Shown here: positions 17,479-50,464 of the stretch, piece by piece | How the letters are laid out: every line of letters starts with the position of its first letter | Position numbering within the stretch: the stretch's first letter is position 1 | Source: Candidatus Omnitrophota bacterium | Lineage (GTDB): Bacteria; Omnitrophota; Gorgyraeia; Zapsychrales; JANLHA01 | Direction of reading: 5' to 3' | Length of the DNA: 64,000 nt | Assembly: GCA_963662715.1 (NCBI GenBank) | Contig: OY759724.1 | Span: 986,662 to 1,050,661 of the forward strand | Program-made: the position numbers and the translations under genes | The notes under the pieces: model-generated | Seen by the model: only the letters and a program-made list of their open reading frames with translations | What the model was told of the DNA's origin: nothing | Database searches by the model: none

Positions 17479-18483
17479 TTATTTTAATACTTTGCAGGAA
17501 TCGCGGACAACAAGCTGGGGCGTTAAGACCATTTGAACAGCGGATTTCTTTTTACCGGTCATAATATTATGTAAATATTTTACTGCATATTCGGCCATTT
17601 GAAATAAAGACTGCCGGATCGTTGTTAAGGCCACCGGACCATAAAGACTGGACGGATTATCGTCAAACCCGATCACGGATATATCCTGGGGCACTTTCAG
17701 GCCCCGCTCTTGAATAACATTAATCGCCTCCAGGGCCATATCATCGCTGGCGGCAAAGATAGCGGTCGGGGGTTGCGGCAGGGACAGAAAGGTTTCCGTC
17801 GCATTCCGCGCACTTCGGCGGGAATAATCCCCTTCGATGACATATTCTTCTTTCAAATCAACATTCTCTTTTTCCAGGCCCTGCTTAAAACCTTCAAATC
17901 GCTGGGCTCCGGCCTGGGTTTGAAGATTACCGGTCACTGTTGCAATGTGATGATGTCCAAGGCTGATTAAATAATCGGCTGCTATGCGTCCGCCGGCCAC
18001 GTTATCGATGCCGATATAATTGACATCCAGGTCATCAACAATATTGTTGATCACAAGACTTGGGATATTGGCCGCCAAAGCTTCTTCAATCTGCTTTCGG
18101 TTTTCAATAATATCAGCAAAAATAACACCGCCGACACTGTTGGTGTTGATAGGATTAAAACCATTGGTTATGTGGAAGACCAGGTCCAGACGCAATGTTT
18201 CACAGGCATGCCCCACCCCGCGAATGATCTCTATCGCGTAAAAAGAATAAAAAATGCCAGGGTATCCTGGCATAACTAATCCGATAGCATTGTTCGTCCC
18301 GCTGGCCAAACGCTGGGCGCTGACGTCCGGTTTGTATTTCAAAGCCGCAATCGCTTCTTCGACCTTCGCACGATTCTGAGGGCTTACAGTAGGGACATTA
18401 TTAATAACACGCGAGACCGTTGTGATGGACACTCTGGCTCGTCGGGCTACATCATCTATACTAACTTTACGTTTCCGGCTCAC
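17479..18483 (-). CDS. LacI-family transcriptional regulator
   Basis: An N-terminal HTH (VSIDDVARRARVSITTVSRVINN) is followed by a periplasmic-binding-protein-like sugar-binding core. Confidence 0.9.
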   Translation of the reverse strand: MSRKRKVSIDDVARRARVSITTVSRVINNVPTVSPQNRAKVEEAIAALKYKPDVSAQRLASGTNNAIGLVMPGYPGIFYSFYAIEIIRGVGHACETLRLDLVFHITNGFNPINTNSVGGVIFADIIENRKQIEEALAANIPSLVINNIVDDLDVNYIGIDNVAGGRIAADYLISLGHHHIATVTGNLQTQAGAQRFEGFKQGLEKENVDLKEEYVIEGDYSRRSARNATETFLSLPQPPTAIFAASDDMALEAINVIQERGLKVPQDISVIGFDDNPSSLYGPVALTTIRQSLFQMAEYAVKYLHNIMTGKKKSAVQMVLTPQLVVRDSCKVLK

Positions 18484-18494
18484 GTTATCCTATT

Positions 18495-19820
18495 CTACCG
18501 CACCGTATCTCCGACTTGAATAGTCGTAACCTTGTTTTTTATATCCGCCGCGGCGATATCGCTTCTGACCTGAATAACCTCTAAGGCAGCCACATACTCA
18601 GCGCCTCTATAAACGCTCATGTTATCTCCGAGCTTCAGGCCGTCACTCTCCCCCAAATCGACAATAACAAAATTGTTTTCGTCATTCACAGAAACAACAT
18701 TCCCGTCAAACCCGGGAGATACTGCGACAGCGACCTCATCTTCCAGGACAGAATGATTAGAGGAGGACACAACGATGGGTGGCAGTTCCACTTCACCGGA
18801 CGCCTGGCTGTCCGTCGATTTAAAATTCTTTTCCAGGCTGTCTTTAATGTCCCAGATTTCATCTATCCGGTTTTGAATAATGTTTTCTGTCTCAAGCAGT
18901 TTACGTTCGATGGTCTTTTTTTCGTCCTGCAGACGGACAATGCTCTTTTCCAGAGCAATCTTCGTGGAAGTCAATCCCTTGATCTGATTCCTTAAATTCG
19001 TATTTTCGTCATTCATTTTGCCAAGCCTGCCGTTGAGGAACTTCTTGTCATTTTCGGAACGGGCCAGCTCCAGGGAAAGATTGTCCGCCAGGTCATTCCC
19101 GTGCTTGATCTTCCGCTCGATAGACTCTTTTTCATTGTTCAATTCCGACAAGCCCAGCTCCAGGTCGGAATTCCTCTTCTTCATTTCTTCCAGCTCAAGC
19201 ATGCTCTTTTCAAGCCTGCCCTGCAAATCTTCCGTTTCCAATTCAAGCGCGGTTTTTTCTTTAATGACCTGCGCCCAATAATTTTCATTATCAGATGATA
19301 TTTCCAGAGACGGAGGACTCACCGGTTTTTCCTGCACGGCCTGTTTCTCCGGGACTTTTTTATCCGCCAAAGGTCTCTGCAACTGGTCTTGCGGAACAGG
19401 GGCTCCGGTATCCCGGTCGACATACTTGTAAACCACCTGCGGCTCCGCCTTTTCCTTAAGCTGAGCCAACAACTTTTCCCGCTCGCCCTCCAGTTTCTTA
19501 ACCTTTTCCTGCAACCCCTCCCGCTCCTGCGACAACTCCTTCAGCTTCAAATCAAGATCTTCCATATTGCCGTCAAAAGAACTTAATTTCTCCTGCAATT
19601 CTGTCTTGATTTTCTCCGCCACCTTCAGCTTTTCCTGAAGGTCCTTGTTCTCCAGAATATATTTTTTCTCCCGGCCCTGGAATTCATCAATTTGCTTTTC
19701 CAAAGAAATCTTCGCCTTATCCACTTCCTGCTTCTGTAAAGCGACATAAGTTAACAATCCGACGGAGACAAAAAGCAATAAGAGCAAAAAAACTAATATG
19801 GACTTTGCAGCTCTCGACAT
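18495..19820 (-). CDS. Membrane-anchored long coiled-coil protein with a C-terminal beta-rich domain (paralog of 39999..40541)
   Basis: An N-terminal TM segment is followed by about 300 aa of heptad-rich E/K/L sequence. The C-terminal domain, NFVIVDLGESDGLKLGDNMSVYRGAEYV, is shared with 39999..40541. An 11-nt gap separates it from the LacI gene. Confidence 0.7.
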   Translation of the reverse strand: MSRAAKSILVFLLLLLFVSVGLLTYVALQKQEVDKAKISLEKQIDEFQGREKKYILENKDLQEKLKVAEKIKTELQEKLSSFDGNMEDLDLKLKELSQEREGLQEKVKKLEGEREKLLAQLKEKAEPQVVYKYVDRDTGAPVPQDQLQRPLADKKVPEKQAVQEKPVSPPSLEISSDNENYWAQVIKEKTALELETEDLQGRLEKSMLELEEMKKRNSDLELGLSELNNEKESIERKIKHGNDLADNLSLELARSENDKKFLNGRLGKMNDENTNLRNQIKGLTSTKIALEKSIVRLQDEKKTIERKLLETENIIQNRIDEIWDIKDSLEKNFKSTDSQASGEVELPPIVVSSSNHSVLEDEVAVAVSPGFDGNVVSVNDENNFVIVDLGESDGLKLGDNMSVYRGAEYVAALEVIQVRSDIAAADIKNKVTTIQVGDTVR

Positions 19821-20032: not shown

Positions 20033-20671
20033 CTACTCATACTGAATATTATCTAAATAAAATGTACAAGACTCCGGATTCACATCAACATTTGTTGACC
20101 ACGAAAAGCCGCCGCTGACATAAGATAAATCCCGGCCTCTTAAATCAATGGTATACTTCCTCCACTCATTCGTCAGGATCACAGGTCCGATGATGGCCAT
20201 ATCCGAATCCGGGTAATCTCCGGTAATGCCTCCCATCTTAAACTCTTCAATACGTTCTCCGCCTTTCTCACCCTTGGCCCAAAAACTTAATTCCCGCGCG
20301 CCTTCCAAATTAAAACCGCCTTTCTGGTTCCCCCAGTTATTCGCCGGATTAAGCCAATAAATACCCGCCCATTTTTGATCTTCCTGGGAACATTCAATTT
20401 CATATTCCACGCGCATACAGGTTTTTCCATCATAACAGTCTTGCTGCCAGGCATCATTAAAATTAAGACATTTTCCGTTGGGCATAAAGCCAGAGGGAAC
20501 AAAATGGTTATCTCTTGAGCCTTTATCTTTATACACGATAAAGGGCTTGAACGTACTTTCCGTTTGCTCATAATTATTACTCTGCCCCGTCGAACTTACG
20601 CTGGTCCGGTTACACCCCCACACGACGAACACACACAGGGCCAATAGAAAAAAATTTTTTTTAATGGCCAT
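20033..20671 (-). CDS. Lipoprotein with putative carbohydrate-binding (CBM-like beta-sandwich) domain
   Basis: A signal peptide with a lipobox (VVWGC) is followed by an aromatic-rich beta-type sequence ending in FYLDNIQYE, which is typical of CBM C-termini. Confidence 0.65.
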   Translation of the reverse strand: MAIKKNFFLLALCVFVVWGCNRTSVSSTGQSNNYEQTESTFKPFIVYKDKGSRDNHFVPSGFMPNGKCLNFNDAWQQDCYDGKTCMRVEYEIECSQEDQKWAGIYWLNPANNWGNQKGGFNLEGARELSFWAKGEKGGERIEEFKMGGITGDYPDSDMAIIGPVILTNEWRKYTIDLRGRDLSYVSGGFSWSTNVDVNPESCTFYLDNIQYE

Positions 20672-20817: not shown

Positions 20818-21696
20818 TTAATCTTCCAAAGCCTCCAACTTTTGCTGTGCTGCTTCTGCCGGTTTCCAGAACCAACCCTTGGGATCCCAGCACTGAGAAA
20901 AATAATAATCGTCGACTAATTTCTTAAACGCTTCTTTAGCTTCGCTATTTTTACCGGCGTTCATATAGGCTTCGCCTCTGATAAAAAGACAGGTGCCGAT
21001 ATCATTCAATGCCCAGTAAGAAAAAATCTTGTCCTTGGATTCCCAGGGATATTCCGTGAGCGACTCCTGCATTTCCTTGGCCTTTTCTTCATACAGCTCC
21101 AGGCATTTATTTGTATAAGCCAACACGGAATCAAGATCTTTTTCGGCTAAGGCTTCCCAAGCTTTAACCGCGAGAGTGCTGGATGTGTAATCCCCGAAAT
21201 CCAAATCTGACCCGGACTCAATCATGGCGATTTTTTCTTTTGCCGCTTCGGCCGGCTTCCAGAACCATCCCTTGGTATCCCAGCATTGCCCGTATGAATA
21301 CTCATCAATAAGCTTCTGATAGGCTTTAACAGCTTCGTCATTCATTTTAGCCTTGCGATAAGCTTCTCCTTGAATGAATAAACCGGTAGCGATATCATTG
21401 AGCGCCCAATAGGAAAAAATTTCATCATTGGTTCCTGTCGGATACTCTGTTAAACTCGCCTGCATTTTTTGCCCTTGCTCGGCATAAAGTTCGATACACT
21501 TATTTGTGTATGCCAATACAGCTTCCAAATCGTTCTCTGCTAAAGATCCCCATGCTTTGGTGATCAATGTCACGGAACGATAATCCCCGAAGTTATAAGC
21601 GAATGCCTTTCCTGGAATGGCCAACGATAAACCCAATACCAAAGCCATCATGACAAAGAAAATCTTTTTTAACATCTCTACCATCCTCCAATTCAT
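20818..21696 (-). CDS. Secreted protein composed of two tandem copies of an uncharacterised ~130-aa TPR-like domain (signature WDPKGWFWKPAEAA)
   Basis: It has a signal peptide. Repeat 1 (aa about 33-160) and repeat 2 (aa about 165-292) are about 60% identical. They share the motifs VLAYTNKC-ELY, SLTEYP, IFSYWALNDI, LFI-GEAY and QCWD-KGWFWKPAEAA. Confidence 0.75.
   Translation of the reverse strand: MNWRMVEMLKKIFFVMMALVLGLSLAIPGKAFAYNFGDYRSVTLITKAWGSLAENDLEAVLAYTNKCIELYAEQGQKMQASLTEYPTGTNDEIFSYWALNDIATGLFIQGEAYRKAKMNDEAVKAYQKLIDEYSYGQCWDTKGWFWKPAEAAKEKIAMIESGSDLDFGDYTSSTLAVKAWEALAEKDLDSVLAYTNKCLELYEEKAKEMQESLTEYPWESKDKIFSYWALNDIGTCLFIRGEAYMNAGKNSEAKEAFKKLVDDYYFSQCWDPKGWFWKPAEAAQQKLEALED
20820..21600. 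repeat. Intragenic tandem duplication (two ~390-bp units, about 75% nt identity)
   Basis: For example, CCGGCTTCCAGAACCATCCCTTGG (about 21247) matches CCGGTTTCCAGAACCAACCCTTGG (about 20862). The units correspond to the two protein repeats. Confidence 0.6.
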
Positions 21697-21908
21697 TTTA
21701 CTTAAAAATTCTTTAATTTTGATTTATGTGAATTCCTTAAAAAGTAATTTTAAGGATATCTAACCAAGCGGTCAGATAAAACAATTTTGATTATACTACC
21801 TGCCAACACCCCCTCTCTTATTAAGATATAGATGAAAATAACTCAGTAATTATAACATTTTTTACTATTATATAGCAAATTTTATTAACAACCCCCACGG
21901 GGACGATC

Positions 21909-24410
21909 TCAGGGGAGCTCATTCCAGGCTTCCTTATAAAATTCATAAGTCTTTCGCAGACGGCGCATAAAAGGGCTGTCTGTCCCGTTGCCCTGGGATG
22001 TAATGCCAAACCATTCTTCATAATAATATCCGCCCGGGAAAGGCCCGATGGCATCCGATTTACGGTCGTGATAAAAAGGCTCATAATTCTTCCACCATTC
22101 ATCCGTCCATTCGAAAACAACGGCTCCCAGGGCATTGCCCTCACCCTCCGCACGGCCAGCCATATTGGCTTCAACATCATACCAGTTGCCCCGGTGATAA
22201 TTCGCCTGGGCTTCCTCCCCTTCTTCCTGCGTTAAATGTTTCGCATAAGCCGGGCAACCGTATTCGGTAATAAAAGCAGGCTTGTCCGTAGCTTCCTTGA
22301 TCTGTTGCCAATACGCGCCAAAACCATAATCCCCCCGATAAGCATTCGCGGCAAACATATCAATATCAGGGGCATGCTTCGCAAAAATATCCAGATATAG
22401 AGTGTCCCCGTTACATAAAGCTACCGGGTGCTCCGGATCTAATGATTTAATCATCTTGGCCACTTCGTTCGCAAACTTGTAATATGCCTCTGGCTTTGTA
22501 TCAGCATTTGAAGCGACCCCGTAGTTATTTTCATTCCCCAACAGCCAAAACAATAAATAAGGTTCGTCTTTATGCTCCAGCACCATCTGACGAACCGACT
22601 CCATCATGTTCTTTTGGTGTTCAGGATTTTCATAATCCGTCCCTTCAAACCAGGATGCTCCTGAACCTAAAGTGTATTTTCCCAAGAAATCTCCCAGAAT
22701 CACCCGGATGCCGAATTCATCATATAACTTACGAAAAACTTCCTTATTGGGCTTAAACGGTTGATGATACTCACGTATTGTATTGGCGCCCATTTCCGCC
22801 ATCAGCTGAAAATCACCGACAACCGGTTCATCGTCATCCCGTTGGTTATTTTCGTTAGCATCCACCCAGACATCATAAGGACCGTCCGGAAGACCGTTTT
22901 TGTTCGTGTCTTCATACATCCAGGAAACGAGGGTCCCTTTATCCGGACTTTGCCCGATCTTTGTCGGGGCATAAGTAACACCTTTGATGATATAGGGTTT
23001 CCCTTCGACTAATAACTGCCAATGACCGTTCTCGTACTGCACCAGCGAGACTTTCCCCTCTCCCAACCTTCTTTTAATTTTCCGCAGAGGGACGGTCTTT
23101 TTATCAAGATTCATCTTATCCTTAACTTTATCAAGAAACCCTTTCTCCTCTATCACGCCGGGATAGGTGATAACGGCATCATTGCTCACATCATTATCAA
23201 ATCCGTTGATAACAGTCATCTTCATCCATTTCACTTTTAAATTCAACTCGGGATGAGAACGGACAAGATGAATGATCTTCGCGACAGCGGCCTGGGCCGG
23301 ATACCAAGGCGTCTGCCAATATGTCCAGCCGATTGTTTTAGGAAAATGCACAACAAGCGCGTGGTAAGCTTTAATCGCCTCATAATACATCTGCGCTTTC
23401 TCTAAAATCATGGCCATATAAAACAGTTTGATCCCTCCCGGCTCAGGTGCGGTAGCCCATTTAAAAAAGGCTGCCTCCAAATCATCACTGTACACAAAAT
23501 CCCAATGGCTACCGTCCAGGCGTCCTTCTTTTTTCGCTTGTTTATATTTGGGATTCTTCAGGATATCGCTGTTATTCGGATAAATGCCTTCTCCCACGGC
23601 TTCTTTGAGGCCTTTGAAATCATTGATTTTATAACGATAATCTTTTGTGCCCACCTCAACAAACTCGCCATACTTCTGATAATCGATGACTTTTTCTGTC
23701 CCCGGCCTGGCTAAAGAAGGCAGTGTCCGCAGACGAGTCGGAGGCACCTCCTCCTCCTCTTCAACTTTGCCGGTCATCACATCAATACTGTCCTGACTTT
23801 TCTCCGCGACGGACCACAACGATCCTCGGGAGGGATCCCAGGCTTGAGCCCAGCCATACTCGTCGATAATGGATTGAAATACCCGGATCGACTGCTCGGT
23901 CTTGCCGTAATTCATGTAAGCTTCGGCCTGAATAAAAAGGACGGTGGCAAGATCATTTAATTCCTGACATTCCTTTTCCTTGCCCTTTGACGGGAATTCC
24001 GTCAACCCGGCCTGCTGTTCCTTGGCCTTCTCTTTATAGACAGATAAAACCGCTTCAACCAGTTTATCCAGTTGCTCTAAATTCCCCTGGTGGGACAGCT
24101 CCCAGCATTTCCGGACCACGTCTTCCGGCGTTGCATCCTGATTAAGAGCAAAATCCTCAAAGGGGATATTTAGTTTCACGGATTGATCAGCGGCTGATTC
24201 ATCAATCGACTCAGCCGGGACATCAGCTTCGGCTGCGTCCTGAGTTTCAACATCCGGCATATTTCCTTGATCTTCTTTCGTGATAGCTTCCGCTGTTGCC
24301 TTCTGACTTTCCGTTTCTGAACTTTTTTCTTCCTGGGCACCGGCTAAAGAAGACATAAAAATCAAGCCGGCCATAAGCGTTGTATAAACTATTTTTTTCA
24401 CTATAAACAC
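21909..24410 (-). CDS. Secreted multidomain protein: acidic low-complexity linker, two divergent copies of the WDP/WYPAQAA TPR-like domain, and a C-terminal clan GH-A glycoside hydrolase domain
   Basis: It has a signal peptide and an E/D/Q-rich region. The repeat LNDLATVLFIQAEAYMNYGK...AWDPSRGSLWSVAEKS is homologous to the repeats of 20818..21696. The GH domain carries ANTIREY, LLGNENNYG (acid/base) and FITEYGC (nucleophile), and is homologous to the 1..1214 protein. Confidence 0.8.
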   Translation of the reverse strand: MFIVKKIVYTTLMAGLIFMSSLAGAQEEKSSETESQKATAEAITKEDQGNMPDVETQDAAEADVPAESIDESAADQSVKLNIPFEDFALNQDATPEDVVRKCWELSHQGNLEQLDKLVEAVLSVYKEKAKEQQAGLTEFPSKGKEKECQELNDLATVLFIQAEAYMNYGKTEQSIRVFQSIIDEYGWAQAWDPSRGSLWSVAEKSQDSIDVMTGKVEEEEEVPPTRLRTLPSLARPGTEKVIDYQKYGEFVEVGTKDYRYKINDFKGLKEAVGEGIYPNNSDILKNPKYKQAKKEGRLDGSHWDFVYSDDLEAAFFKWATAPEPGGIKLFYMAMILEKAQMYYEAIKAYHALVVHFPKTIGWTYWQTPWYPAQAAVAKIIHLVRSHPELNLKVKWMKMTVINGFDNDVSNDAVITYPGVIEEKGFLDKVKDKMNLDKKTVPLRKIKRRLGEGKVSLVQYENGHWQLLVEGKPYIIKGVTYAPTKIGQSPDKGTLVSWMYEDTNKNGLPDGPYDVWVDANENNQRDDDEPVVGDFQLMAEMGANTIREYHQPFKPNKEVFRKLYDEFGIRVILGDFLGKYTLGSGASWFEGTDYENPEHQKNMMESVRQMVLEHKDEPYLLFWLLGNENNYGVASNADTKPEAYYKFANEVAKMIKSLDPEHPVALCNGDTLYLDIFAKHAPDIDMFAANAYRGDYGFGAYWQQIKEATDKPAFITEYGCPAYAKHLTQEEGEEAQANYHRGNWYDVEANMAGRAEGEGNALGAVVFEWTDEWWKNYEPFYHDRKSDAIGPFPGGYYYEEWFGITSQGNGTDSPFMRRLRKTYEFYKEAWNELP

Positions 24411-24425
24411 CCCTTCCGATTCTTG

Positions 24426-25298
24426 TTATCCGAAAACTGCGCCAGATAATAATCCTTTTATGATATGTTTCTGCATAAGAAGATACACAATAATGATCGG
24501 GATAGCTGCGATACTTAATCCGGCCATGAGAAGCGGATAATCCACACTATGAGCACCCTGAAAAACCATTAATCCCCGCTGAAGCGGCATGATGGTAGGC
24601 TTATTAGGAATGTCATTCAACAATAACATCGCTAAAATATACTCATTCCAAACATTTAAAGCGTTGAAGATAACGATAACCGCGATAGCCGGCCTTGCCA
24701 GAGGCAGGGCCACATGGCGCCATATCCCCAATTTTGTACAGCCGTCGATCCGCGCGGCATCTTCCAGATCAGGCGGCATTTTATCAAAAAATGTTTTCAA
24801 TAGCAAAATACTTAAAGACAGCCCGACATTAATCATACAAAGGATATAACCTAATTGCCTGACATAGGTGTAAGGAGAGTTGATAAATCCAAGCTTTGTC
24901 ATAAGAACGGTTAACGGGACGAAACTTCCCGGCAGGGGGATCATCATGGCAGCCACGAACATATAAAAGAAAAAATTCTTTCCTGGGAAATGAAGACGGG
25001 AAAAAGCATATGCCGCCAAAGAAGCGATGAGCACAATACCCGCCACAACGCAAAAAGTGTAAATCACGCTGTTTAAAGAATACATGCCGAATTGGCCTTC
25101 GGTCCAGGCTTTGATAAAGTTGTCAAAATATATCTCCGATGGGATCAAAGACTTGTCTGTAAAGACCGTTGCGTTGGTCATCAGGGCGGAACGCAGCATC
25201 CAAAACAGCGGGAAGAGACAGGTTATGGCTATGGCAAGAAGAAAAATGTGAACGGAAACGGCTTTTGTCGCCCGAATCACCCGGTATTTATTAACCAT
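24426..25298 (-). CDS. Carbohydrate ABC transporter permease (MalG/UgpE-like, CUT1)
   Basis: It has 6 TM helices and the EAA-loop region DLEDAARIDGCTKLGIWRHVALPLARP. Confidence 0.9.
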   Translation of the reverse strand: MVNKYRVIRATKAVSVHIFLLAIAITCLFPLFWMLRSALMTNATVFTDKSLIPSEIYFDNFIKAWTEGQFGMYSLNSVIYTFCVVAGIVLIASLAAYAFSRLHFPGKNFFFYMFVAAMMIPLPGSFVPLTVLMTKLGFINSPYTYVRQLGYILCMINVGLSLSILLLKTFFDKMPPDLEDAARIDGCTKLGIWRHVALPLARPAIAVIVIFNALNVWNEYILAMLLLNDIPNKPTIMPLQRGLMVFQGAHSVDYPLLMAGLSIAAIPIIIVYLLMQKHIIKGLLSGAVFG

Positions 25299-25344
25299 AA
25301 TTTATCCTCATTTAAACATCCCCCCTCTGCCCGACAATAGGGAA

Positions 25345-26274
25345 TCAGGCCTGTTTCATGTGAGCGGAAAGTTTTTTCAAACAAAAAGACACGGCAATCA
25401 AGATCATGCCGAAATTAACACCCATGGCACAGGCATACCCGTAACGATTCTGCCTTGTCATGGCTTCTAAAATTTTTGTAACAGGAACAGATGTATAGTC
25501 CACTAATCCAGAAGGACCGACTAAAGATAAAATCAAAACAAAAGCCTGCATCGCCCCGAGAATTGTTAAAATCATGACAACAACAATAACCGGAAGCATC
25601 ATCGGGACTGTGACATTCTTAAACACACTGAATGAGCCTGCCCCGTCAACTCGTGCCGCTTCATATAATTGCCGGTCAATGGTCTGAAGGCCGGCTAAAA
25701 ACATAACGAAGCCCCATCCGAATCCTTTCCAGGAGTGAACGACAGCCACACAGGTTAAAACCGTCTTAGGATCGGATAACCAATTATTAACGAGATGAGA
25801 AAAACCAATTTTATGCAGAAAATAATTCAGCAAGCCGATATGCTGCCCGTCTTGTAAGCCGGGATAAAGGATCCAGCTCCAAATGAGGCCAACAACAACC
25901 TCGGAGAGAACCGGCGGGATGAAAAAGATCACCCGGTAAAACCCTTTCAGAAAAATCTCCCGGTCGCACGCCAAAGCCAAGGCAAAAGCCAAAGCATTCT
26001 GAAAAGTCAAAGCAATAAGCGTGATATAAGCGGCGTTCCACATGGAGACCCACCAGCTCTTATCACTCATCAGTTCTTTAAAATTCTCAAAACCGACATA
26101 TATACGTGTCGGGCTAATGCCGTTCCATTCCTGCAGGGAAAGATTAAAAATTTCCAGAAAAGGAGCGATGTAAAAGGTTAAGAAAATAAAGACCGCAGGT
26201 AAAACAAACGCAAAACTTCCCAGCTGGTCACGAATACGGGGAAGCGACATGCTCCTTTTTTGGGGTAAAGCCAT
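25345..26274 (-). CDS. Carbohydrate ABC transporter permease (MalF/UgpA-like, CUT1)
   Basis: It has 6 TM helices and the EAA motif YEAARVDGAGSFSVFKNVTVPMMLPV. Confidence 0.9.
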   Translation of the reverse strand: MALPQKRSMSLPRIRDQLGSFAFVLPAVFIFLTFYIAPFLEIFNLSLQEWNGISPTRIYVGFENFKELMSDKSWWVSMWNAAYITLIALTFQNALAFALALACDREIFLKGFYRVIFFIPPVLSEVVVGLIWSWILYPGLQDGQHIGLLNYFLHKIGFSHLVNNWLSDPKTVLTCVAVVHSWKGFGWGFVMFLAGLQTIDRQLYEAARVDGAGSFSVFKNVTVPMMLPVIVVVMILTILGAMQAFVLILSLVGPSGLVDYTSVPVTKILEAMTRQNRYGYACAMGVNFGMILIAVSFCLKKLSAHMKQA

Positions 26275-26297
26275 ATTTTAAAGGTTTAACCTTAAAT

Positions 26298-27611
26298 TTA
26301 TTCGCGCTTCTTCTTTTTCGCCATCTGGCGTTCTTTGACTTTCTGCACTTCTTCTGCCACCTGTTGAGGCGTTTTTTCACCGATAATAATCGACTGAATG
26401 CCTTTATCAAATGCCTCAACGACCAAAGGATGTTCATCCAGCGGCCAGATCGTTGGATGTGTTGTCGCGTCCATGGCTCTGGCAAATTCCGAAAGCACAT
26501 CCGGGATATCGGTCAAAGCATAGCGATTCGCCGGTAAATTTAAAGTCTCCTTTGATAAATAAGCTTGCTGTTCTTTCGCCGAAAGCCACTTTAAAAACGC
26601 AATCGCCTTATCCTTTTTATCGCTTGAATTATTAACGACAAACGATGATCCTGCCCCGCCCCATATGCGCATCGGGATATTCTTGCTGTATTTCGGTGGC
26701 AGCATAACGCCATAATCAAGATGAGGATTCATCTTATGATAAACATTGACGCACCAGGAGCCGTTAAAAGCAAATGCGTTACGGTTCAAGGCGAAATCCT
26801 GCTCAGCATATTTATTGGCTTTTGTCACGACCCCTTCGGCTAAGGCCCCTTTATCGCGTAAAGTTGCAAAAACCTGAAGAACCTCGATCCATTCGGGATC
26901 TGTATACGGGACTTTGCCGCGGTACGTGGCCATAACTTTATCTTCACCTAAAATATTGAAAGCATAATTGGAGGCAAAACAATTCACCAGCCATAATTCC
27001 CCCCACCCGGAAACAAGCCCGGATACCCCAACGCGTTTTAAAGCTTCAATGGCTTCCAGAAACTCATCAAAAGTTTGAGGCACTTTACTGATTCCGGCCT
27101 TTTCCAGCAAGGCTTTATTATAAAGCATCTGAACATTCGTGACATCGATGGGAACACCGTAGATTCCGGGTTCAATGCCATAGCTATTTCCTTCATCAAA
27201 ACGGTTTGCGGCAAGGGCCTTCGGGAAAAGGCTTTTCTCCCAGGCTGAATTATCTTTGACAAATTCTTCAGACAGATCCGCAACATATCCGCTTTCAATA
27301 AAGGTAGCAAAAACGGATTTCTTATCCAGGATTCCAAAGATATCAGGAAGGATTTTGGCTTGGGCTGCGGCAATGATTTTTTGGGAGTAAACATCAGAAG
27401 GGGCGTAAAGTTCAAAGATGACTTCAACTCCGGTCTCTTCTTGATATTTTTTCGCTAACTCCTTTAAAACTTCATGCCGGTCAGTTATCCAGTGCCAAAC
27501 CGTAATGATATTCTTATTCGGCGGAACGGCTGGGCCACCACAGCTTTGACAACTCCAGATAACGGCTATGGCCAAACATATGCCTGCCAGAAATTTCCCT
27601 TTCATGGTCAA
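26298..27611 (-). CDS. Extracellular solute-binding protein (family 1) of sugar ABC transporter, lipoprotein
   Basis: It has a signal peptide with Cys and the architecture of a CUT1 oligosaccharide-binding protein. No ATPase gene is adjacent, as is common for CUT1 systems using a shared MsiK. Confidence 0.9.
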   Translation of the reverse strand: MTMKGKFLAGICLAIAVIWSCQSCGGPAVPPNKNIITVWHWITDRHEVLKELAKKYQEETGVEVIFELYAPSDVYSQKIIAAAQAKILPDIFGILDKKSVFATFIESGYVADLSEEFVKDNSAWEKSLFPKALAANRFDEGNSYGIEPGIYGVPIDVTNVQMLYNKALLEKAGISKVPQTFDEFLEAIEALKRVGVSGLVSGWGELWLVNCFASNYAFNILGEDKVMATYRGKVPYTDPEWIEVLQVFATLRDKGALAEGVVTKANKYAEQDFALNRNAFAFNGSWCVNVYHKMNPHLDYGVMLPPKYSKNIPMRIWGGAGSSFVVNNSSDKKDKAIAFLKWLSAKEQQAYLSKETLNLPANRYALTDIPDVLSEFARAMDATTHPTIWPLDEHPLVVEAFDKGIQSIIIGEKTPQQVAEEVQKVKERQMAKKKKRE

Positions 27612-27789: not shown

Positions 27790-27816
27790 CTTAGAGAAAA
27801 AGGGAATCTGTCCCTT
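27790..27816 (-). terminator. Rho-independent terminator immediately after the GH94 stop
   Basis: On the minus strand, AAGGGA-CAGAT-TCCCTT is followed by TTTCTCT. Confidence 0.5.
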
Positions 27817-30233
27817 TATTCTATCACAACTTTAACCTTATGAACCTGGGCATCTTTAAAAGGAACAATGATATCCCCTTCTATGACCTGCCCATCCACC
27901 GTGATCGTTTTCCGGCCTTTTTCCTTGCCTTGAGGGTTAAAAATCTCTATTTCATAAACATCCCCCCGGAAGGGCCGGCGGATAAAACATTTTTTCCACT
28001 GAGGAGGAAGACACGGATCAATCCTCAATCCCTCATAATCTCTCCGCACCCCCAGAATCCATTCCGTAGCCAACATAAAATTCCATCCCGACGTTCCGGT
28101 AATCCAGGTAAAAGCCCCCTCCCCGTAACGGTAGGGGTTGCCAGGCCCGACTAAATATTCGGCAAAAACATACGGTTCCGTCTTATACAGCTCCATATTC
28201 TTTTGTTTGTTGGGCATGATCTTACACACAGCCTCATAAGCTTTGGCCCCGTAGCCGGCCATGGCATACCCGACCGCCATAAAAGTGGCGGCGTGGCAGA
28301 AAACAGCGGCATTCTCTTTTGTCCCTTCAGAAAACATGCTGATGCGTCCCAGCCTCTGAACCCAGTCAGAATAGGCAGGAGCAAAAAGAGCCAGCCCATG
28401 GGGACCGTTAAGATATTTATCCGTGGCCTGCAGGATTTTTTTCAAGCGATCACCCCGGGCCACTTCTGAAAGCACTGCCCAGGCCTGCGCATTTAAAAAG
28501 ATTTTGCCTTCCTTGTCTTTCTTGCTTCCGTAGACCTGCCCCTGGTCATCAAATCCGCGGGCGTACCATTCTCCGTCCCAGCCCGCGGTATTTATCCGCT
28601 CATCCATCGTCTTGGCCATCTGCAAATATTCCGCTTTTTTCTGTTCTTCATTGACCAGCTGACAAAGTTCGGCTAAAACTTTAAGCGACCGGACCAAAGC
28701 TTCTGCCAACCAGACGCTTTCCCCTTTATGCTGAATACCGGCAGCGTCAATAGCATCATTCCAGTCAGCATGGCCGATTCTGGGGAACCCTTTTTCTCCG
28801 ACATCGTTAAAGCAATAACGCAGATTCTTTTCTAAGTGCTCGAAAAGGGTGCCTTCCCCATCGGTCTGAGCCCCTCCTTTGTGCTGCGGATCCACCTCCC
28901 AGCCGTTGATCCACTTGTCTTTTAAATAAGGGACGTACTCAAAGAGAATATCCTTGTCTCCGGTTTCCTTAATATAAGAACTCACTGTCGCCGTCAGCCA
29001 GATGGGGTGGTCTTTATTGGGAAGAAATTTATGCGGGCCTACGGTGTCCGACCACCCGGGAGCCGATGTCCCGTCCCTGCGGATCAAAGAGGCCAGTTTT
29101 AAAATTTTTTGACGCGTTAGGGCCGCATTGATAGAAACAGCCGCCTCAGAATCCTGGGCGGAATCCCGGTAGCCCCGGCCGCCGGATCCCTCGTGGTAAA
29201 AACTCGGGGACCGTGACCAGAGATTACATATATACAGCTGGTATTTCACCCAAATGTTGAAAAGGGTGTCGAAATCTTTATCCGGGGTTTTACAGACAAT
29301 ATTATCCACGACACGCTTCTTCCAGATATCCTGTGTCCGGATCAGCTCCTGCCTGGCTAATTTGGGTTGACGATACTTAGCAACGGTCTTCCCGATACCT
29401 GAGATATCATGGCTCTGTCCTAAAACGACCGTGAATTCTTTAGACTGCCCCGGGCCTAATGTCAGCGTATGCTTATAGGCTCCTATGCTGTCTTCCCCGG
29501 AACAGAGATAAAAATTCTTGAAATGACCGTCAATCACCGCCTCCGGCTTTTCCTCGGTGTTATAACGGCCCAGGAACGCATCTTTCTGAGTGCAACAGCC
29601 CTTGACGGGCAAGGAAGAAGCAAAGTATATCAGGGAATCAAACGGCTGGATATTCATCCCCTGCCATTGAGCGGTCTTCTTGGCATACACAACTTTCTGT
29701 TTTTTATCAAACCATACCCGGTTGTATAAGTTCATAATGTTCCGGTATCTCAAATCCTCATGATAATCTCCTATGAGAAATTCCACATAAGGGTAAACTT
29801 CCAGTTTTTTTTCCTTTTTCGACGGATTCGTGATGTTCACCAGCCAAACTTCACAGGATTCATCCTCCGGCACAAAAAAAGTTACTTCCGAGCGGACACC
29901 ATTATTCAAGGCGGAAATCGTCGTATACCCCAGGCCATGCCGGCATTCATACTGCTGAGGCGTCACCCGAAGAGGCTGGTATGTCAAAGACCAGGCTTTC
30001 TTACCTTCTCGCATAAAGATGTATTTCCCCGGCCGGTCAAAATGCCAGTTTTCCGGGGCCCAGCGCGTAATACGGTTGCTTCGGCAGTCCTTATAAAAAC
30101 TGTATCCCCCGGCACACTGTGAGAGGATACAACAGTAATTTTCATTTGTAAGATAATTGATCCAGGGGCGGGGCGTGAGCGGAGTTGTAATAACATATTC
30201 TAAGCCTGATTTTGAAAAATATCCGTACTTCAT
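27816..30233 (-). CDS. GH94 family disaccharide phosphorylase (cellobiose/laminaribiose/chitobiose phosphorylase-like)
   Basis: The N-terminus MKYGYFSKSGLEYVITTPLTPRPWINYL is typical of GH94, and the protein is about 805 aa with (alpha/alpha)6 catalytic region motifs. Start refined to the ATG at 30233, 9 nt after AAAGAGG. The track ORF starts at 30389. Confidence 0.9.
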   Translation of the reverse strand: MKYGYFSKSGLEYVITTPLTPRPWINYLTNENYCCILSQCAGGYSFYKDCRSNRITRWAPENWHFDRPGKYIFMREGKKAWSLTYQPLRVTPQQYECRHGLGYTTISALNNGVRSEVTFFVPEDESCEVWLVNITNPSKKEKKLEVYPYVEFLIGDYHEDLRYRNIMNLYNRVWFDKKQKVVYAKKTAQWQGMNIQPFDSLIYFASSLPVKGCCTQKDAFLGRYNTEEKPEAVIDGHFKNFYLCSGEDSIGAYKHTLTLGPGQSKEFTVVLGQSHDISGIGKTVAKYRQPKLARQELIRTQDIWKKRVVDNIVCKTPDKDFDTLFNIWVKYQLYICNLWSRSPSFYHEGSGGRGYRDSAQDSEAAVSINAALTRQKILKLASLIRRDGTSAPGWSDTVGPHKFLPNKDHPIWLTATVSSYIKETGDKDILFEYVPYLKDKWINGWEVDPQHKGGAQTDGEGTLFEHLEKNLRYCFNDVGEKGFPRIGHADWNDAIDAAGIQHKGESVWLAEALVRSLKVLAELCQLVNEEQKKAEYLQMAKTMDERINTAGWDGEWYARGFDDQGQVYGSKKDKEGKIFLNAQAWAVLSEVARGDRLKKILQATDKYLNGPHGLALFAPAYSDWVQRLGRISMFSEGTKENAAVFCHAATFMAVGYAMAGYGAKAYEAVCKIMPNKQKNMELYKTEPYVFAEYLVGPGNPYRYGEGAFTWITGTSGWNFMLATEWILGVRRDYEGLRIDPCLPPQWKKCFIRRPFRGDVYEIEIFNPQGKEKGRKTITVDGQVIEGDIIVPFKDAQVHKVKVVIE

Positions 30234-30449
30234 ATGGTCCATCCTCTTTCTGATAATGTTATTATTTTGAAAAATATAGTAAAGAATACGTGGGATATTA
30301 TCATAGAGAAAAATTGCGGTCAAGATTTTTCCCAGATTAATCGCGATAAACAGGCGGGATACTGGCCTTGATCGTGTTTCAGATACCACGCGGGGATTCT
30401 GCTCTCTAAACAGGCAAAGTCGGTGGCCTACCCCCCGACTCCGCTCATT

Positions 30450-31139: not shown

Positions 31140-32258
31140 TTGCGACCCAAAATTAAATATGTTACGATAATGCCCATGTTAACACAAATGAGAAAAAAAA
31201 TCGACCAAAGTTTAGAAGCCTTCCTGAACAAGGCTTATAAAGAATATAACCTTCAGCAGATTGACCCCATCCTCTTTCACAGCATCAGAGATTTCGTACT
31301 GCGCCCCGGGAAGCGCATCCGCCCTCTTCTCTTAATTTGCAGTTATAAAGGATACTGCCGCAAAAGCATCCGGATGACGCCTTCCATTTACTATGTCTCC
31401 TCCTGCATCGAATTACTGCACAATTTCATGCTGATTCACGATGATATTATCGACCGTTCGGACTTGCGCAGGGGAAAGCCGACGATGCACAAAATGCTTG
31501 AAAAAGCCGCTAAAACACCGGATCCGGCCCGTTTGGGCACAGACTTGAGCATTATTGCCGGAGATATCGTCTATGCCTTAGCTATCGACGCTTTTCTATC
31601 GATCAACGAAGACAAGAAACGGAAAGAAAAAGCTTTGAAGTATTTTATTCAGACAGCGGTTTTTACGGCCATGGGGGAATTTATTGATACCTTGCACGGG
31701 AACAGGAAGATCCCCCAGGTCACAGAAAAAGATGTCTTTCTGAACTATTCTCTTAAAACAGCCCGCTACACCTTTGACTGTCCGCTAGTCGTCGGCGCCA
31801 TTTTAGCCGGAGCCAATGAGCAGGACACGCGCCTTTTATCAGAACTCGGACTCCTGATCGGACAGGCCTTCCAAATACAAGACGACATCATCGGGGTGTT
31901 TGATACACAAAAAAACATCGGCAAGTCCATATTAAGCGACATCGCCGAATCAAAAAAAACCCTGCTGGTCTGCCATGCCTACCGGCACCTCAAAGGGAAA
32001 CAGCGCTCCCAATTCCTCTATTATTTCACCAAACCCCACACAACCTATAAGGATCTCACGGCGCTGCGGAAAATTTTTATCCAGACAGGCAGCCTGGCCT
32101 ACAGCCTGGATCAGATCCAGACCCGGTTAAAGCGTTCCGAAAAAATCCTGAAAAAGCTGAAGATAAAAAAACAACACCTCCATTATATAGAGAAGCTTCT
32201 TTTGGAATTATTCCACCACAGCCGGCGTATCGCTCAACATAACCACATTTCCTTTTAA
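31140..32258 (+). CDS. Polyprenyl diphosphate synthase (trans-isoprenyl diphosphate synthase family)
   Basis: The first aspartate-rich motif, LIHDDIIDRSD, and the second, QIQDDIIG, are present. The start codon is uncertain: TTG at 31140 or ATG a few codons downstream. Confidence 0.85.
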   Translation: MRPKIKYVTIMPMLTQMRKKIDQSLEAFLNKAYKEYNLQQIDPILFHSIRDFVLRPGKRIRPLLLICSYKGYCRKSIRMTPSIYYVSSCIELLHNFMLIHDDIIDRSDLRRGKPTMHKMLEKAAKTPDPARLGTDLSIIAGDIVYALAIDAFLSINEDKKRKEKALKYFIQTAVFTAMGEFIDTLHGNRKIPQVTEKDVFLNYSLKTARYTFDCPLVVGAILAGANEQDTRLLSELGLLIGQAFQIQDDIIGVFDTQKNIGKSILSDIAESKKTLLVCHAYRHLKGKQRSQFLYYFTKPHTTYKDLTALRKIFIQTGSLAYSLDQIQTRLKRSEKILKKLKIKKQHLHYIEKLLLELFHHSRRIAQHNHISF

Positions 32259-49714: not shown

Positions 49715-49790
<76 letters not shown>

Positions 49791-50380: not shown

Positions 50381-50464
50381 GCTGGAGTGGCGGAATTGGT
50401 ATACGCGCTGGTCTCAAAAACCAGTGAGGGAAACCTCATGAGGGTTCGACTCCCTCCTCCAGCA
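50381..50464 (+). tRNA. tRNA-Leu (anticodon CAA), long variable arm, no encoded CCA
   Basis: The acceptor GCTGGAG/CTCCAGC is perfect. The anticodon stem CTGGT/ACCAG carries loop CTCAAAA. The long variable arm is TGAGGGAAACCTCA and the T-arm is GAGGGTTCGACTCCCTC. Confidence 0.9.

What the first reader, a model, noticed from the sequence alone, without database searches (positions are those of the whole stretch)
20818..24410. Uncharacterised tandemly duplicated ~130-aa domain (signature QCWDPKGWFWKPAEAA) in two adjacent secreted proteins
Protein 20818..21696 is essentially two copies of one domain, about 60% identical at protein level and about 75% at DNA level, which points to a recent duplication. 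A third and fourth, more diverged copy sit upstream of the GH domain of 21909..24410. The motifs are VLAYTNKC-ELY, SLTEYP, IFSYWALNDI, LFIQGEAY and the Trp-rich WDPKGWFWKPAEAA. I do not recognise this domain as a named family. Its TPR-like helical character and aromatic cluster suggest a glycan- or cell-surface-binding module that targets the hydrolase.
Basis: seen in the sequence. Interest (0 to 1): 0.6.

Follow-up and report, generated by a model that had tools for sequence, protein, structure and literature searches.

The report
TPR-derived accessory domain of glucanases
A real but unnamed ~125-residue helical (TPR-like) domain with a tryptophan-rich hairpin is repeated in two exported proteins of an Omnitrophota sugar-utilisation operon; it travels with one type of glycoside hydrolase across many uncultured bacteria, so it is probably a helper module for handling beta-glucan, though what it binds has not been shown.

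Summary
The repeat is real. Protein 20818..21696(-) holds two units that are 63% identical (E 2e-61). The neighbouring hydrolase 21909..24410(-) holds one full unit and a 52-residue C-terminal half unit, not two copies.

The duplication is old, not recent:
- Codon-aligned DNA identity is 64%.
- Synonymous sites are saturated.
- Each unit is closer to its counterpart in 86 other two-unit proteins (about 76%) than to its sister unit (51-66%).

Pfam recognises only one generic 28-residue TPR motif per unit. No solved structure resembles the whole unit. AlphaFold gives two helical hairpins, a Trp-rich beta-hairpin and a capping helix.

The family has at least 1138 clusters at 50% identity, nearly all with signal peptides, in 1 to 8 tandem copies, mostly in Omnitrophota. 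It is fused or adjacent to a GH158/GH2-like TIM-barrel hydrolase, to a PF11790 hydrolase, and to a BcsA-like GT2 synthase. It also co-occurs with a conserved 212-residue lipoprotein.

The operon (GH94 cellobiose-phosphorylase-like enzyme, sugar ABC importer, LacI) is conserved in about 24 Omnitrophota species.

Best reading (confidence about 0.45): a non-catalytic, extracytoplasmic glycan-handling module, comparable to a CBM or to the TPR domains of PgaA and BcsC. A protein-docking scaffold is the main rival. I class it as a new variant of a known kind, of moderate interest.

The parts
20818..21696 (-). pA: exported two-unit protein. The listed ORF is 292 aa. The likely real start is ATG 21675, giving 285 aa.
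   Evidence: P0001 100% identical, 285 aa; GGAGG 7 nt before ATG 21675
21598..21675 (-). pA Sec signal peptide MLKKIFFVMMALVLGLSLAIPGKAFA, with cleavage expected after AFA
   Evidence: Read from the sequence. AF2 gives helix 3-25 followed by a low-confidence stretch at 27-31. No signal-peptide predictor was available.
21217..21594 (-). Unit 1 of pA (aa 35-160)
   Evidence: AF2 helices 41-53, 57-80, 97-115, 119-132, beta-hairpin 138-146, helix 148-161
20824..21201 (-). Unit 2 of pA (aa 166-291), containing QCWDPKGWFWKPAEAA
   Evidence: AF2 helices 172-184, 188-211, 228-246, 250-263, hairpin, helix 279-291
21849..21878 (-). Promoter-like site (TTGCTA-18-TATAAT with TG) in the pB-pA spacer. pA may have its own promoter.
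   Evidence: a consensus match only
21909..24410 (-). pB: exported multidomain glycoside hydrolase (833 aa)
24156..24335 (-). pB acidic, disordered linker after the signal peptide (aa 26-85)
   Evidence: AF2 pLDDT below 50 for aa 23-85
23784..24137 (-). Unit 3: the complete but diverged unit in pB (aa 92-209)
   Evidence: family HMM E 5e-39; AF2 helices 95-108, 111-134, 145-167, 171-184, hairpin 189-200, helix 201-212
23451..23774 (-). pB aa 213-320: a confidently folded mixed alpha/beta region with no family match
   Evidence: pLDDT about 95-98; no Pfam hit
23274..23429 (-). Half unit in pB (aa 328-379): TPR helix pair, Trp loop (GWTYWQTPWYPAQAA) and cap only
   Evidence: 37% over 51 aa, E 3e-5; HMM positions 71-122, E 1.4e-5
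22971..23240 (-). pB beta-sandwich domain preceding the barrel (aa 391-480)
   Evidence: AF2 strands 391-480
21912..22853 (-). pB clan GH-A TIM barrel, GH158/GH2-like (aa about 520-833). Presumed acid/base E627 lies in GNENNY (22530..22532). Presumed nucleophile E716 lies in ITEYG (22263..22265).
   Evidence: Pfam PF02836 E 3e-16. GH158 chain 9oro_A E 1.3e-13 with NE and TE(F/Y)G aligned. Foldseek 9p26 E 5e-13, 6pal E 6e-11. E627 and E716 are invariant in 98 homologues.
20033..20671 (-). Conserved 212-aa lipoprotein (lipobox VWGC), partner of the unit proteins; fold unassigned
24426..27611 (-). Sugar ABC importer: binding lipoprotein 26298..27611, permeases 25345..26274 and 24426..25298
27816..30389 (-). 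GH94 disaccharide phosphorylase, cellobiose-phosphorylase-like. The real start is probably about 50 codons inside the listed ORF.
   Evidence: Pfam E 2e-103 and 7e-68. 3qde E 8e-143, with the alignment starting at query residue 53.
17479..18483 (-). LacI-family regulator at the end of the conserved cluster

Best explanation
The unit is a discrete, exported, ~125-residue TPR-derived domain. It consists of two helix-turn-helix pairs, a Trp-rich beta-hairpin (QCWDPxGWFW) that takes the place of the next helix, and a capping helix.

I propose it is a non-catalytic accessory module for beta-glucan handling outside the cytoplasm.
- In pB, one and a half units sit in front of a retaining GH158/GH2-like TIM-barrel glucanase.
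- In pA, two free units form a soluble bivalent partner.
- Together with the 212-aa lipoprotein, they would hold a beta-glucan chain or its fragments near the hydrolase.
- The oligosaccharides would then enter through the ABC importer and be split by the cytoplasmic GH94 phosphorylase, under LacI control.

Shown here: the domain, its fold class, its export signals, its age, its family size, the operon and the fusions.

Inferred: that the ligand is a glycan, that it is a beta-glucan, and that pA, pB and the lipoprotein act together.
For: 1. Gene fusion and adjacency tie the unit to carbohydrate-active enzymes.
- In about 24 of 33 Omnitrophota species loci, a pB-like unit+GH gene lies directly upstream of the pA-like gene.
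- In L039 a single-unit 168-aa protein overlaps the start of a separate GH gene that is homologous to the pB barrel (32% identity, E 2e-21).
- P0284 is two units plus a PF11790 hydrolase (E 5e-44).
- P0357 is two lipo212 domains, a pB-like barrel, three units, He_PIG and DUF4082.
- P0313 is an exported pB-like GH (E 2e-26), two units, TM helices and a BcsA-like GT2 (4hg6 E 2.6e-30).
- P0265 carries CHB_HEX_C/Fn3_assoc.
- L041 has a unit gene beside a GT2/epimerase/NTP-transferase cluster.

2. Nearly all members have signal peptides or lipoboxes.

3. Copy number varies from 1 to 8, and between 2 and 3 at the same locus. This is the pattern seen in multivalent binding modules.

4. Aromatic residues are conserved outside canonical TPR positions. 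Family columns 16, 106, 112 and 113 are at least 90% aromatic across 202 units whose median identity is 36%.

5. The operon is a sugar-uptake operon: GH94 with cellobiose phosphorylase as best match (E 8e-143), a binding protein, permeases and LacI.

6. There is a precedent for a TPR domain binding a polysaccharide and modulating its hydrolase: PgaA (PMC9384988, title and abstract).
Against: - No similarity to any CBM family or to SusD.
- TPR motifs usually bind peptides.
- The best-conserved polar residues (N67, D68, T71, and D107-P-x-G110) sit at a helix start and in a hairpin turn. They could be purely structural (an inference).
- The model coordinates could not be inspected, so no exposed aromatic platform was shown.
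- Some paralogues sit in unrelated contexts: between SecA and Lnt in L035, and next to GT4/acyltransferase/T4SS ATPase genes in L031.
- The locus already has another candidate binder, the 212-aa lipoprotein.
Confidence: 0.45

Rival explanations
1. Protein-protein scaffold. The units are TPR docking modules that assemble pB, pA, the lipoprotein and the coiled-coil protein into an envelope complex. They might bind an extended peptide such as the conserved DFGDY segment. They would not touch the glycan.
For: - The unit contains a bona fide TPR motif above Pfam thresholds.
- Its only structural neighbours are peptide-binding TPR proteins such as KLC, Hop, CpoB and BamD.
- pB is predicted as one compact body (pTM 0.83), so units can pack against other domains.
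- Four genes are kept together across species.
- Some paralogues sit in non-carbohydrate contexts.
Against: - In P0313 and P0357 everything is already one polypeptide, so docking would be redundant.
- Proteins made only of 3 to 8 units exist.
- No second, complementary module type was found.
Confidence: 0.3
2. Regulator or chaperone of the hydrolase. The unit binds the GH barrel, in cis in pB and in trans for pA. It would keep the barrel folded or inactive in the periplasm until export, or protect the cell's own glucan.
For: - The tightest and most widespread partner is one GH lineage, whether fused, overlapping or adjacent.
- The Planctomycete-like gene pair overlaps by 17 nt, which suggests coupled synthesis.
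- The PgaA TPR domain modulates PgaB activity (PMC9384988).
Against: - The unit also occurs with a different hydrolase family, PF11790, and in loci with no hydrolase at all.
- A tandem array of 8 units is hard to explain as an inhibitor.
- The weak Imm12 hit (E 0.0067, below cut-off) is not meaningful.
Confidence: 0.12
3. The unit is an inert spacer or structural stalk with no specific ligand. Its conservation reflects only folding constraints.
For: - Many of the conserved residues have structural explanations.
- pB has a long disordered linker, and the locus encodes a coiled-coil protein. Both suggest that spacing elements are used here.
Against: - Synonymous sites between the two pA units are saturated while the protein sequence is held at 63% identity, which indicates strong purifying selection.
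- Free-standing single-unit secreted proteins of 150-200 aa are common. A spacer with nothing to space is unlikely.
Confidence: 0.08

Closest known systems
Generic TPR motifs (Pfam TPR_6 PF13174, TPR_2 PF07719), as in the periplasmic proteins CpoB/YbgF and BamD
   Same: - One helix-turn-helix per unit matches above Pfam thresholds (42.8 and 36 bits).
- The proteins are exported to the envelope.
- The 'yP.s..a.eA'-like ending of TPR_6 motifs corresponds in position to the Trp loop plus PAEAA. This correspondence is my own reading of the consensus.
   Different: - Only about 28 of 126 residues match.
- NCBIfam YbgF and BamD score 17-19 bits against cut-offs of 81-90.
- The unit is a closed domain with a beta-hairpin and a capping helix, not an open superhelix.
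- The signature motifs YWALNDV.T and QCWDP.GWFWKPA are not TPR features.
TPR domains of synthase-dependent exopolysaccharide systems (PgaA, BcsC, PelB, AlgK)
   Same: - Periplasmic helical repeats that accompany a GT2-type synthase and a periplasmic hydrolase.
- The PgaA TPR domain binds PNAG and modulates PgaB (PMC9384988).
- P0313 combines a BcsA-like GT2, a periplasmic hydrolase and two units in one chain.
   Different: - No outer-membrane barrel is attached.
- No detectable sequence relationship beyond the TPR motif.
- In the window the units sit in a catabolic import operon, not a synthesis operon.
Carbohydrate-binding modules and surface glycan-binding proteins (including SusD, whose scaffold contains TPR units; own knowledge)
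   Same: - Non-catalytic and exported.
- Appended to or encoded beside glycoside hydrolases.
- Variable tandem copy number and an aromatic-rich signature.
   Different: - No Pfam CBM or SusD model matches.
- The fold is helical, whereas most CBM families are beta-sandwiches (own knowledge).
- Binding is untested.
GH158 endo-beta-1,3-glucanases (BuGH158, 6pal; GH158(Pro), 9oro), as the relative of the pB catalytic domain
   Same: - Clan GH-A TIM barrel.
- The NE and TE(F/Y)G catalytic motifs align.
- Best fold match: Foldseek E 5e-13, TM 0.55 on the target.
   Different: - Only about 21% identity over the barrel.
- The N-terminal TPR-derived units and the beta-sandwich have no counterpart in the matched GH158 chains, which are only 399-424 residues long.
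- The GH94 partner is closest to cellobiose phosphorylase, not laminaribiose phosphorylase (E 8e-143 against 2e-42), so the linkage specificity is open.

Membership tests
TPR (Pfam clan, TPR_6/TPR_2) | A 34-residue helix-turn-helix motif matching the family HMM above the gathering score | tested here: met
   pA scores TPR_6 42.8 bits (cut-off 26.3) and TPR_2 36 bits (cut-off 27), best stretches aa 106-133 (TPR_6) and aa 236-261 (TPR_2). pB scores TPR_6 32 bits.
TPR (Pfam clan, TPR_6/TPR_2) | A tandem array of canonical motifs forming an open right-handed superhelix | tested here: inconclusive
   Only one motif per 126-residue unit is recognised. AF2 shows two helical pairs, then a beta-hairpin and a cap. 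Foldseek TM scores to TPR proteins are 0.16-0.32. Coordinates could not be inspected.
SEL1-like repeats | A match to the Sel1 repeat model | tested here: not met
   No Sel1 family appears among the Pfam hits up to E = 1.
YbgF/CpoB and BamD | Whole-protein score above the NCBIfam equivalog or subfamily cut-off | tested here: not met
   TIGR02795 18.8 bits against 90.1; TIGR03302 17.3 bits against 81.4.
CAZy carbohydrate-binding modules | Sequence membership in an existing CBM family | tested here: not met
   No CBM model appears among the Pfam hits for pA or pB. PDB sequence and profile searches give only TPR proteins.
CAZy carbohydrate-binding modules | Demonstrated carbohydrate binding by the isolated module | not testable with these tools
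   Needs recombinant protein and binding assays.
SusD-like glycan-binding proteins | A match to the SusD/RagB models, and pairing with a SusC-type TonB-dependent transporter | tested here: not met
   No SusD model hit. The locus uses an ABC importer, and the window locus and the loci with called genes (L001-L004) show no TonB-dependent receptor.
GH158 (for the pB catalytic domain) | Significant sequence similarity of the catalytic domain to GH158 members, with conserved catalytic glutamates | tested here: inconclusive
   phmmer E 1.3e-13 over about 180 residues, with both catalytic motifs aligned. Foldseek E 5e-13 at 21% identity. GH2 enzymes score nearly as well, so assignment needs the CAZy models.
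GH94 (for 27816..30389) | The supersandwich domain plus the GH94 catalytic domain | tested here: met
   PF06165 E 6.7e-68 and PF17167 E 2e-103. 3qde E 8e-143 over the full length.

The most novel reading that the evidence does not exclude
The unit founds a new, all-helical family of carbohydrate-binding modules. A closed TPR-derived domain would use its Trp-rich beta-hairpin to grip beta-glucan chains. The module would be specific to Omnitrophota and a few related uncultured lineages. It would be used both by secreted glucanases and by a BcsA-like synthase, linking polymer synthesis, trimming and scavenging through one module.
Probability: 0.35. Interest if true: 0.65.

Novelty: new variant of a known kind. 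Interest (0 to 1): 0.42.

Why it matters
Omnitrophota are abundant, almost wholly uncultured bacteria whose way of life (free-living, predatory or parasitic) is debated. GH2-like hydrolases are the most frequent catalytic genes found next to their giant proteins (10.64898/2026.06.07.730766).

This work defines a large unnamed domain family of at least 1138 clusters that accompanies exactly that hydrolase lineage. It also defines a conserved nine-gene glucan-utilisation cluster. Together these give concrete, cheap targets for biochemistry: one 126-residue domain, one 285-residue protein and one hydrolase.

If the unit binds glycan, it would add a helical fold to the CBM repertoire. It would also improve annotation of well over a thousand proteins now labelled only 'tetratricopeptide repeat protein' (1432 database proteins matched pA at E <= 0.001). 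If it does not bind glycan, it is a further specialised TPR scaffold, of mainly local interest.

Tried and rejected
- **Conserved disulfide** between the Cys of NKC and the Cys of QCW. The two columns do not covary (Fisher p = 0.73 over 202 units). Rejected.
- **Recent duplication.** Rejected.
- **PDB relatives of the whole unit.** phmmer on pA, a 27-unit profile, and Foldseek on the AF2 model gave only generic TPR hits.
- **Genome scan with the diverse alignment A3.** The scan with A1 found only 33 close Omnitrophota loci, so it is not a full phylogenetic profile.
- **Taxon names for distant members.** Mostly absent. The Planctomycete assignment of L039 and L040 rests only on neighbouring PF07596/N_methyl and PF07586 genes. 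That these families are typical of Planctomycetes is my own knowledge.
- **GH148 as the family of pB.** Rejected. GH148 is GH42-like with an inserted module (PMC5725463).
- **The 212-aa lipoprotein as a known CBM.** No Pfam or PDB hit, even with a 16-sequence profile, and no hhalign similarity to the CIA30/SGBP-like neighbour in L041.
- **The 495-aa neighbour in L005 as a known hydrolase.** No hit.
- **Rfam.** Nothing in the region.
- **Imm12, Pox_F16 and prefoldin weak hits.** All below cut-offs; treated as noise.
- **Literature.** Searches found no paper describing this domain.


Full report
**What is in the sequence**

All genes of the region lie on the minus strand.
- ORF 20818..21696 (pA) encodes a signal peptide followed by two units, aa 35-160 and aa 166-291.
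- The two units share 80 of 126 residues without a gap (BLASTP E 2e-61).
- ORF 21909..24410 (pB, 833 aa) has one complete unit at aa 92-209. It is 33-35% identical to the pA units (E 1e-25 and 9e-21) and scores E 5e-39 against a family HMM.
- pB also has a 52-residue segment, aa 328-379, that matches only the last 52 positions of the unit (E 1.4e-5).
- The repeat is therefore far beyond chance, but pB holds one and a half units, not two.
- A GGAGG lies 7 nt before ATG 21675, and the database copy is 285 residues. The real start of pA is probably seven codons inside the listed ORF.

**Age of the duplication**

- Codon-aligned DNA identity of the two pA units is 64.0%: 71%, 81% and 40% at codon positions 1, 2 and 3.
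- At the 74 conserved residues that have a choice of codon, the same codon is used 32 times. Codon usage alone predicts 30.9. Synonymous sites are saturated.
- In 87 two-unit proteins (pA and 86 homologues), unit 1 and unit 2 are 51-66% identical within a protein. pA unit 1 is on average 76% identical to unit 1 of the other 86, and unit 2 is 75% identical to their unit 2.
- The duplication therefore predates the divergence of these two-unit proteins. The similarity is kept by selection on the protein.

**What kind of domain it is**

- Pfam finds only TPR_6/TPR_2 motifs of about 28 residues, one per unit. NCBIfam gives sub-threshold YbgF and BamD hits.
- An AlphaFold model of pA from 87 homologues has mean pLDDT 90.9.
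- Each unit in the model has helices at 41-53, 57-80, 97-115 and 119-132, then a short beta-hairpin exactly at QCWD..GWFW, then a capping helix at 148-161.
- Foldseek against the PDB returns only generic TPR proteins (best E 1.4e-3, TM 0.16-0.32).
- A profile of 27 diverse units finds only consensus TPRs, CpoB and kinesin light chain, all over a single motif.
- The unit is therefore a TPR-derived closed domain without a solved or named relative.

**Size and shape of the family**

- A profile of the three window units, run against 1.84 billion representatives, finds 1138 clusters at E <= 1e-3 and 114 at E <= 1e-30.
- Among the best 147, 84 have one unit, 42 have two, and the rest have three to six. 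One protein in locus L005 consists of eight units.
- Nearly all begin with a signal peptide or lipobox.
- Over 202 units with a median pairwise identity of 36%, the following are conserved: N67 (100%), A42, V69, A89, L66, W16, D68, T71, W113, D107 and G110. Columns 16, 38, 74, 93, 106, 112 and 113 are at least 90% aromatic, and columns 100 and 102 are 83% and 87%.
- A42 and A89 are ordinary TPR packing positions. N67, D68 and T71 lie at the start of a helix, and D-P-x-G forms the hairpin turn. Part of this signature may therefore be structural. That is my inference.
- Named homologues are almost all from Candidatus Omnitrophota, with one from 'Aureabacteria'.

**Surroundings**

The cluster reads as follows:
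- GH94 phosphorylase. Its best solved relative is cellobiose phosphorylase (E 8e-143). Laminaribiose phosphorylase scores only 2e-42.
- A sugar-binding lipoprotein and two permeases.
- pB, then pA.
- A 212-residue lipoprotein.
- A 441-residue membrane-anchored coiled-coil protein.
- A LacI regulator.

The same order recurs in loci L001-L004 and in most of 33 species-level Omnitrophota genomes. In about 24 of them a pB-like gene lies directly upstream of the pA-like gene.

The pB barrel is closest to GH158 endo-beta-1,3-glucanases (9oro_A E 1.3e-13; Foldseek 9p26 E 5e-13), followed by GH2 glucuronidases. The NE and TE(Y/F)G catalytic motifs align, and E627 and E716 are invariant in 98 homologues.

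The pB model has pTM 0.83, so its units, beta-sandwich and barrel are predicted as one compact body. They follow a disordered acidic linker at aa 23-85.

**Links between the unit and carbohydrate enzymes**

- In L039 a single-unit 168-residue protein overlaps the start of a separate gene for a pB-like barrel (32% identity, E 2e-21). The locus looks like a Planctomycete by its neighbouring gene families.
- P0284 is two units fused to a PF11790 hydrolase core (E 5e-44).
- P0357 (1939 aa) fuses two copies of the 212-residue lipoprotein domain, a pB-like barrel, three units, He_PIG and DUF4082. It lies next to a GH5/Laminin_G_3 gene.
- P0313 (1202 aa) has, in order: a signal anchor, a pB-like hydrolase (30% over 266 residues, E 2e-26, with GNENNY and SEIG motifs), two units, three hydrophobic helices, and a GT2 whose nearest solved relative is cellulose synthase BcsA (E 2.6e-30). 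By topology, the hydrolase and the units lie on the side of the membrane opposite the synthase active site.
- In L041 a single-unit gene sits beside a GT2, epimerase and nucleotidyl-transferase cluster.
- In L005 a three-unit and an eight-unit protein sit between LacI genes and four paralogues of the 212-residue lipoprotein.
- Exceptions exist. L035 has a four-unit protein between SecA and Lnt, and L031 has neighbours of other kinds.

**Interpretation**

The unit, the pB-type barrel and the 212-residue lipoprotein behave as a functional set. They are found as neighbours, as overlapping genes and as fusions.

The set is exported. It occurs both in an uptake operon and fused to a cellulose-synthase-like enzyme. 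This points to a polymer outside the cytoplasm, most simply a beta-glucan, as the common object.

I therefore favour a non-catalytic glycan-handling role for the unit (0.45). That role is analogous to a CBM, or to the TPR domain of PgaA, which binds PNAG and modulates PgaB (PMC9384988).

The main rival (0.30) is that the units are ordinary TPR docking surfaces that assemble these proteins. It is weakened by the all-in-one fusions and by proteins made only of units. A chaperone or regulator of the barrel (0.12) and an inert spacer (0.08) are less likely.

None of these could be separated decisively here.

**Novelty**

Literature searches found no description of the domain. Current annotations read 'tetratricopeptide repeat protein' or 'hypothetical protein'.

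It belongs to the TPR superfamily by one motif, so it is not categorically new. Its closed architecture, its Trp hairpin, its signature motifs and its consistent partnership with one hydrolase lineage make it a new variant of a known kind.

Interest is moderate. The family is large and is tied to enzymes that matter for the debated lifestyle of Omnitrophota, but the function remains an inference.

Noticed in passing
window 20033..20671 (-): A 212-aa lipoprotein conserved directly after the pA-like gene in about 25 Omnitrophota loci. It has no Pfam or PDB match, even with a 16-sequence profile. Two copies are fused with a pB-like hydrolase and three units in P0357, and four paralogues surround the unit proteins in L005. 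Its sequence (WAGIYW, LSFWAKG, FYLDNIQYE) looks like a beta-sandwich binding module to me, but that is untested.
   Followed up: partly
L043 1930..5538 (protein P0313): A single 1202-aa protein combining an exported pB-like hydrolase, two units, transmembrane helices and a BcsA-like GT2 synthase. In effect it is a one-chain version of a synthase, hydrolase and TPR exopolysaccharide system.
   Followed up: partly
L005 12652..15990: A 1112-aa protein made of eight tandem units and nothing else, in a genome labelled Candidatus Aureabacteria. It is flanked by LacI genes and by triplets of lipo212-like, ~497-aa unknown and lipo212-like genes. The ~497-aa proteins have no Pfam hit, and the one searched against the PDB (L005 6751..8238) has no match.
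   Followed up: partly
window 18495..19820 (-): A 441-aa protein with an N-terminal membrane anchor, a long coiled coil and a small C-terminal domain (weak FlgT_C hit, E 3e-4). It is conserved between the lipoprotein and LacI in most related loci, and its role is unknown.
   Followed up: no
window 21675..21696 and 30240..30389: The listed ORF starts are probably too far upstream. pA most likely starts at ATG 21675 (GGAGG 7 nt before it). The GH94 alignment to cellobiose phosphorylase begins at residue 53 of the listed ORF.
   Followed up: partly
window 24156..24335 (-): pB carries a 60-residue acidic, Glu/Asp/Ala-rich segment after its signal peptide, predicted to be disordered (pLDDT below 50). 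It could be a tether or spacer.
   Followed up: no
L041 7145..8053: The gene overlapping the start of a single-unit gene has sub-threshold hits to CIA30 (E 2e-4) and to the SGBP-B xyloglucan-binding domain (E 4e-4). This may be another beta-sandwich binder paired with a unit protein.
   Followed up: partly
window 49715..49787 and 50381..50464 (+): Two tRNA genes are the only Rfam matches in the window.
   Followed up: no
window 31140..32258 (+): A polyprenyl diphosphate synthase whose best NCBIfam hit is a family 2 encapsulin cargo polyprenyl transferase (E 2e-50, far below the cut-off). It is unrelated to the finding.
   Followed up: no
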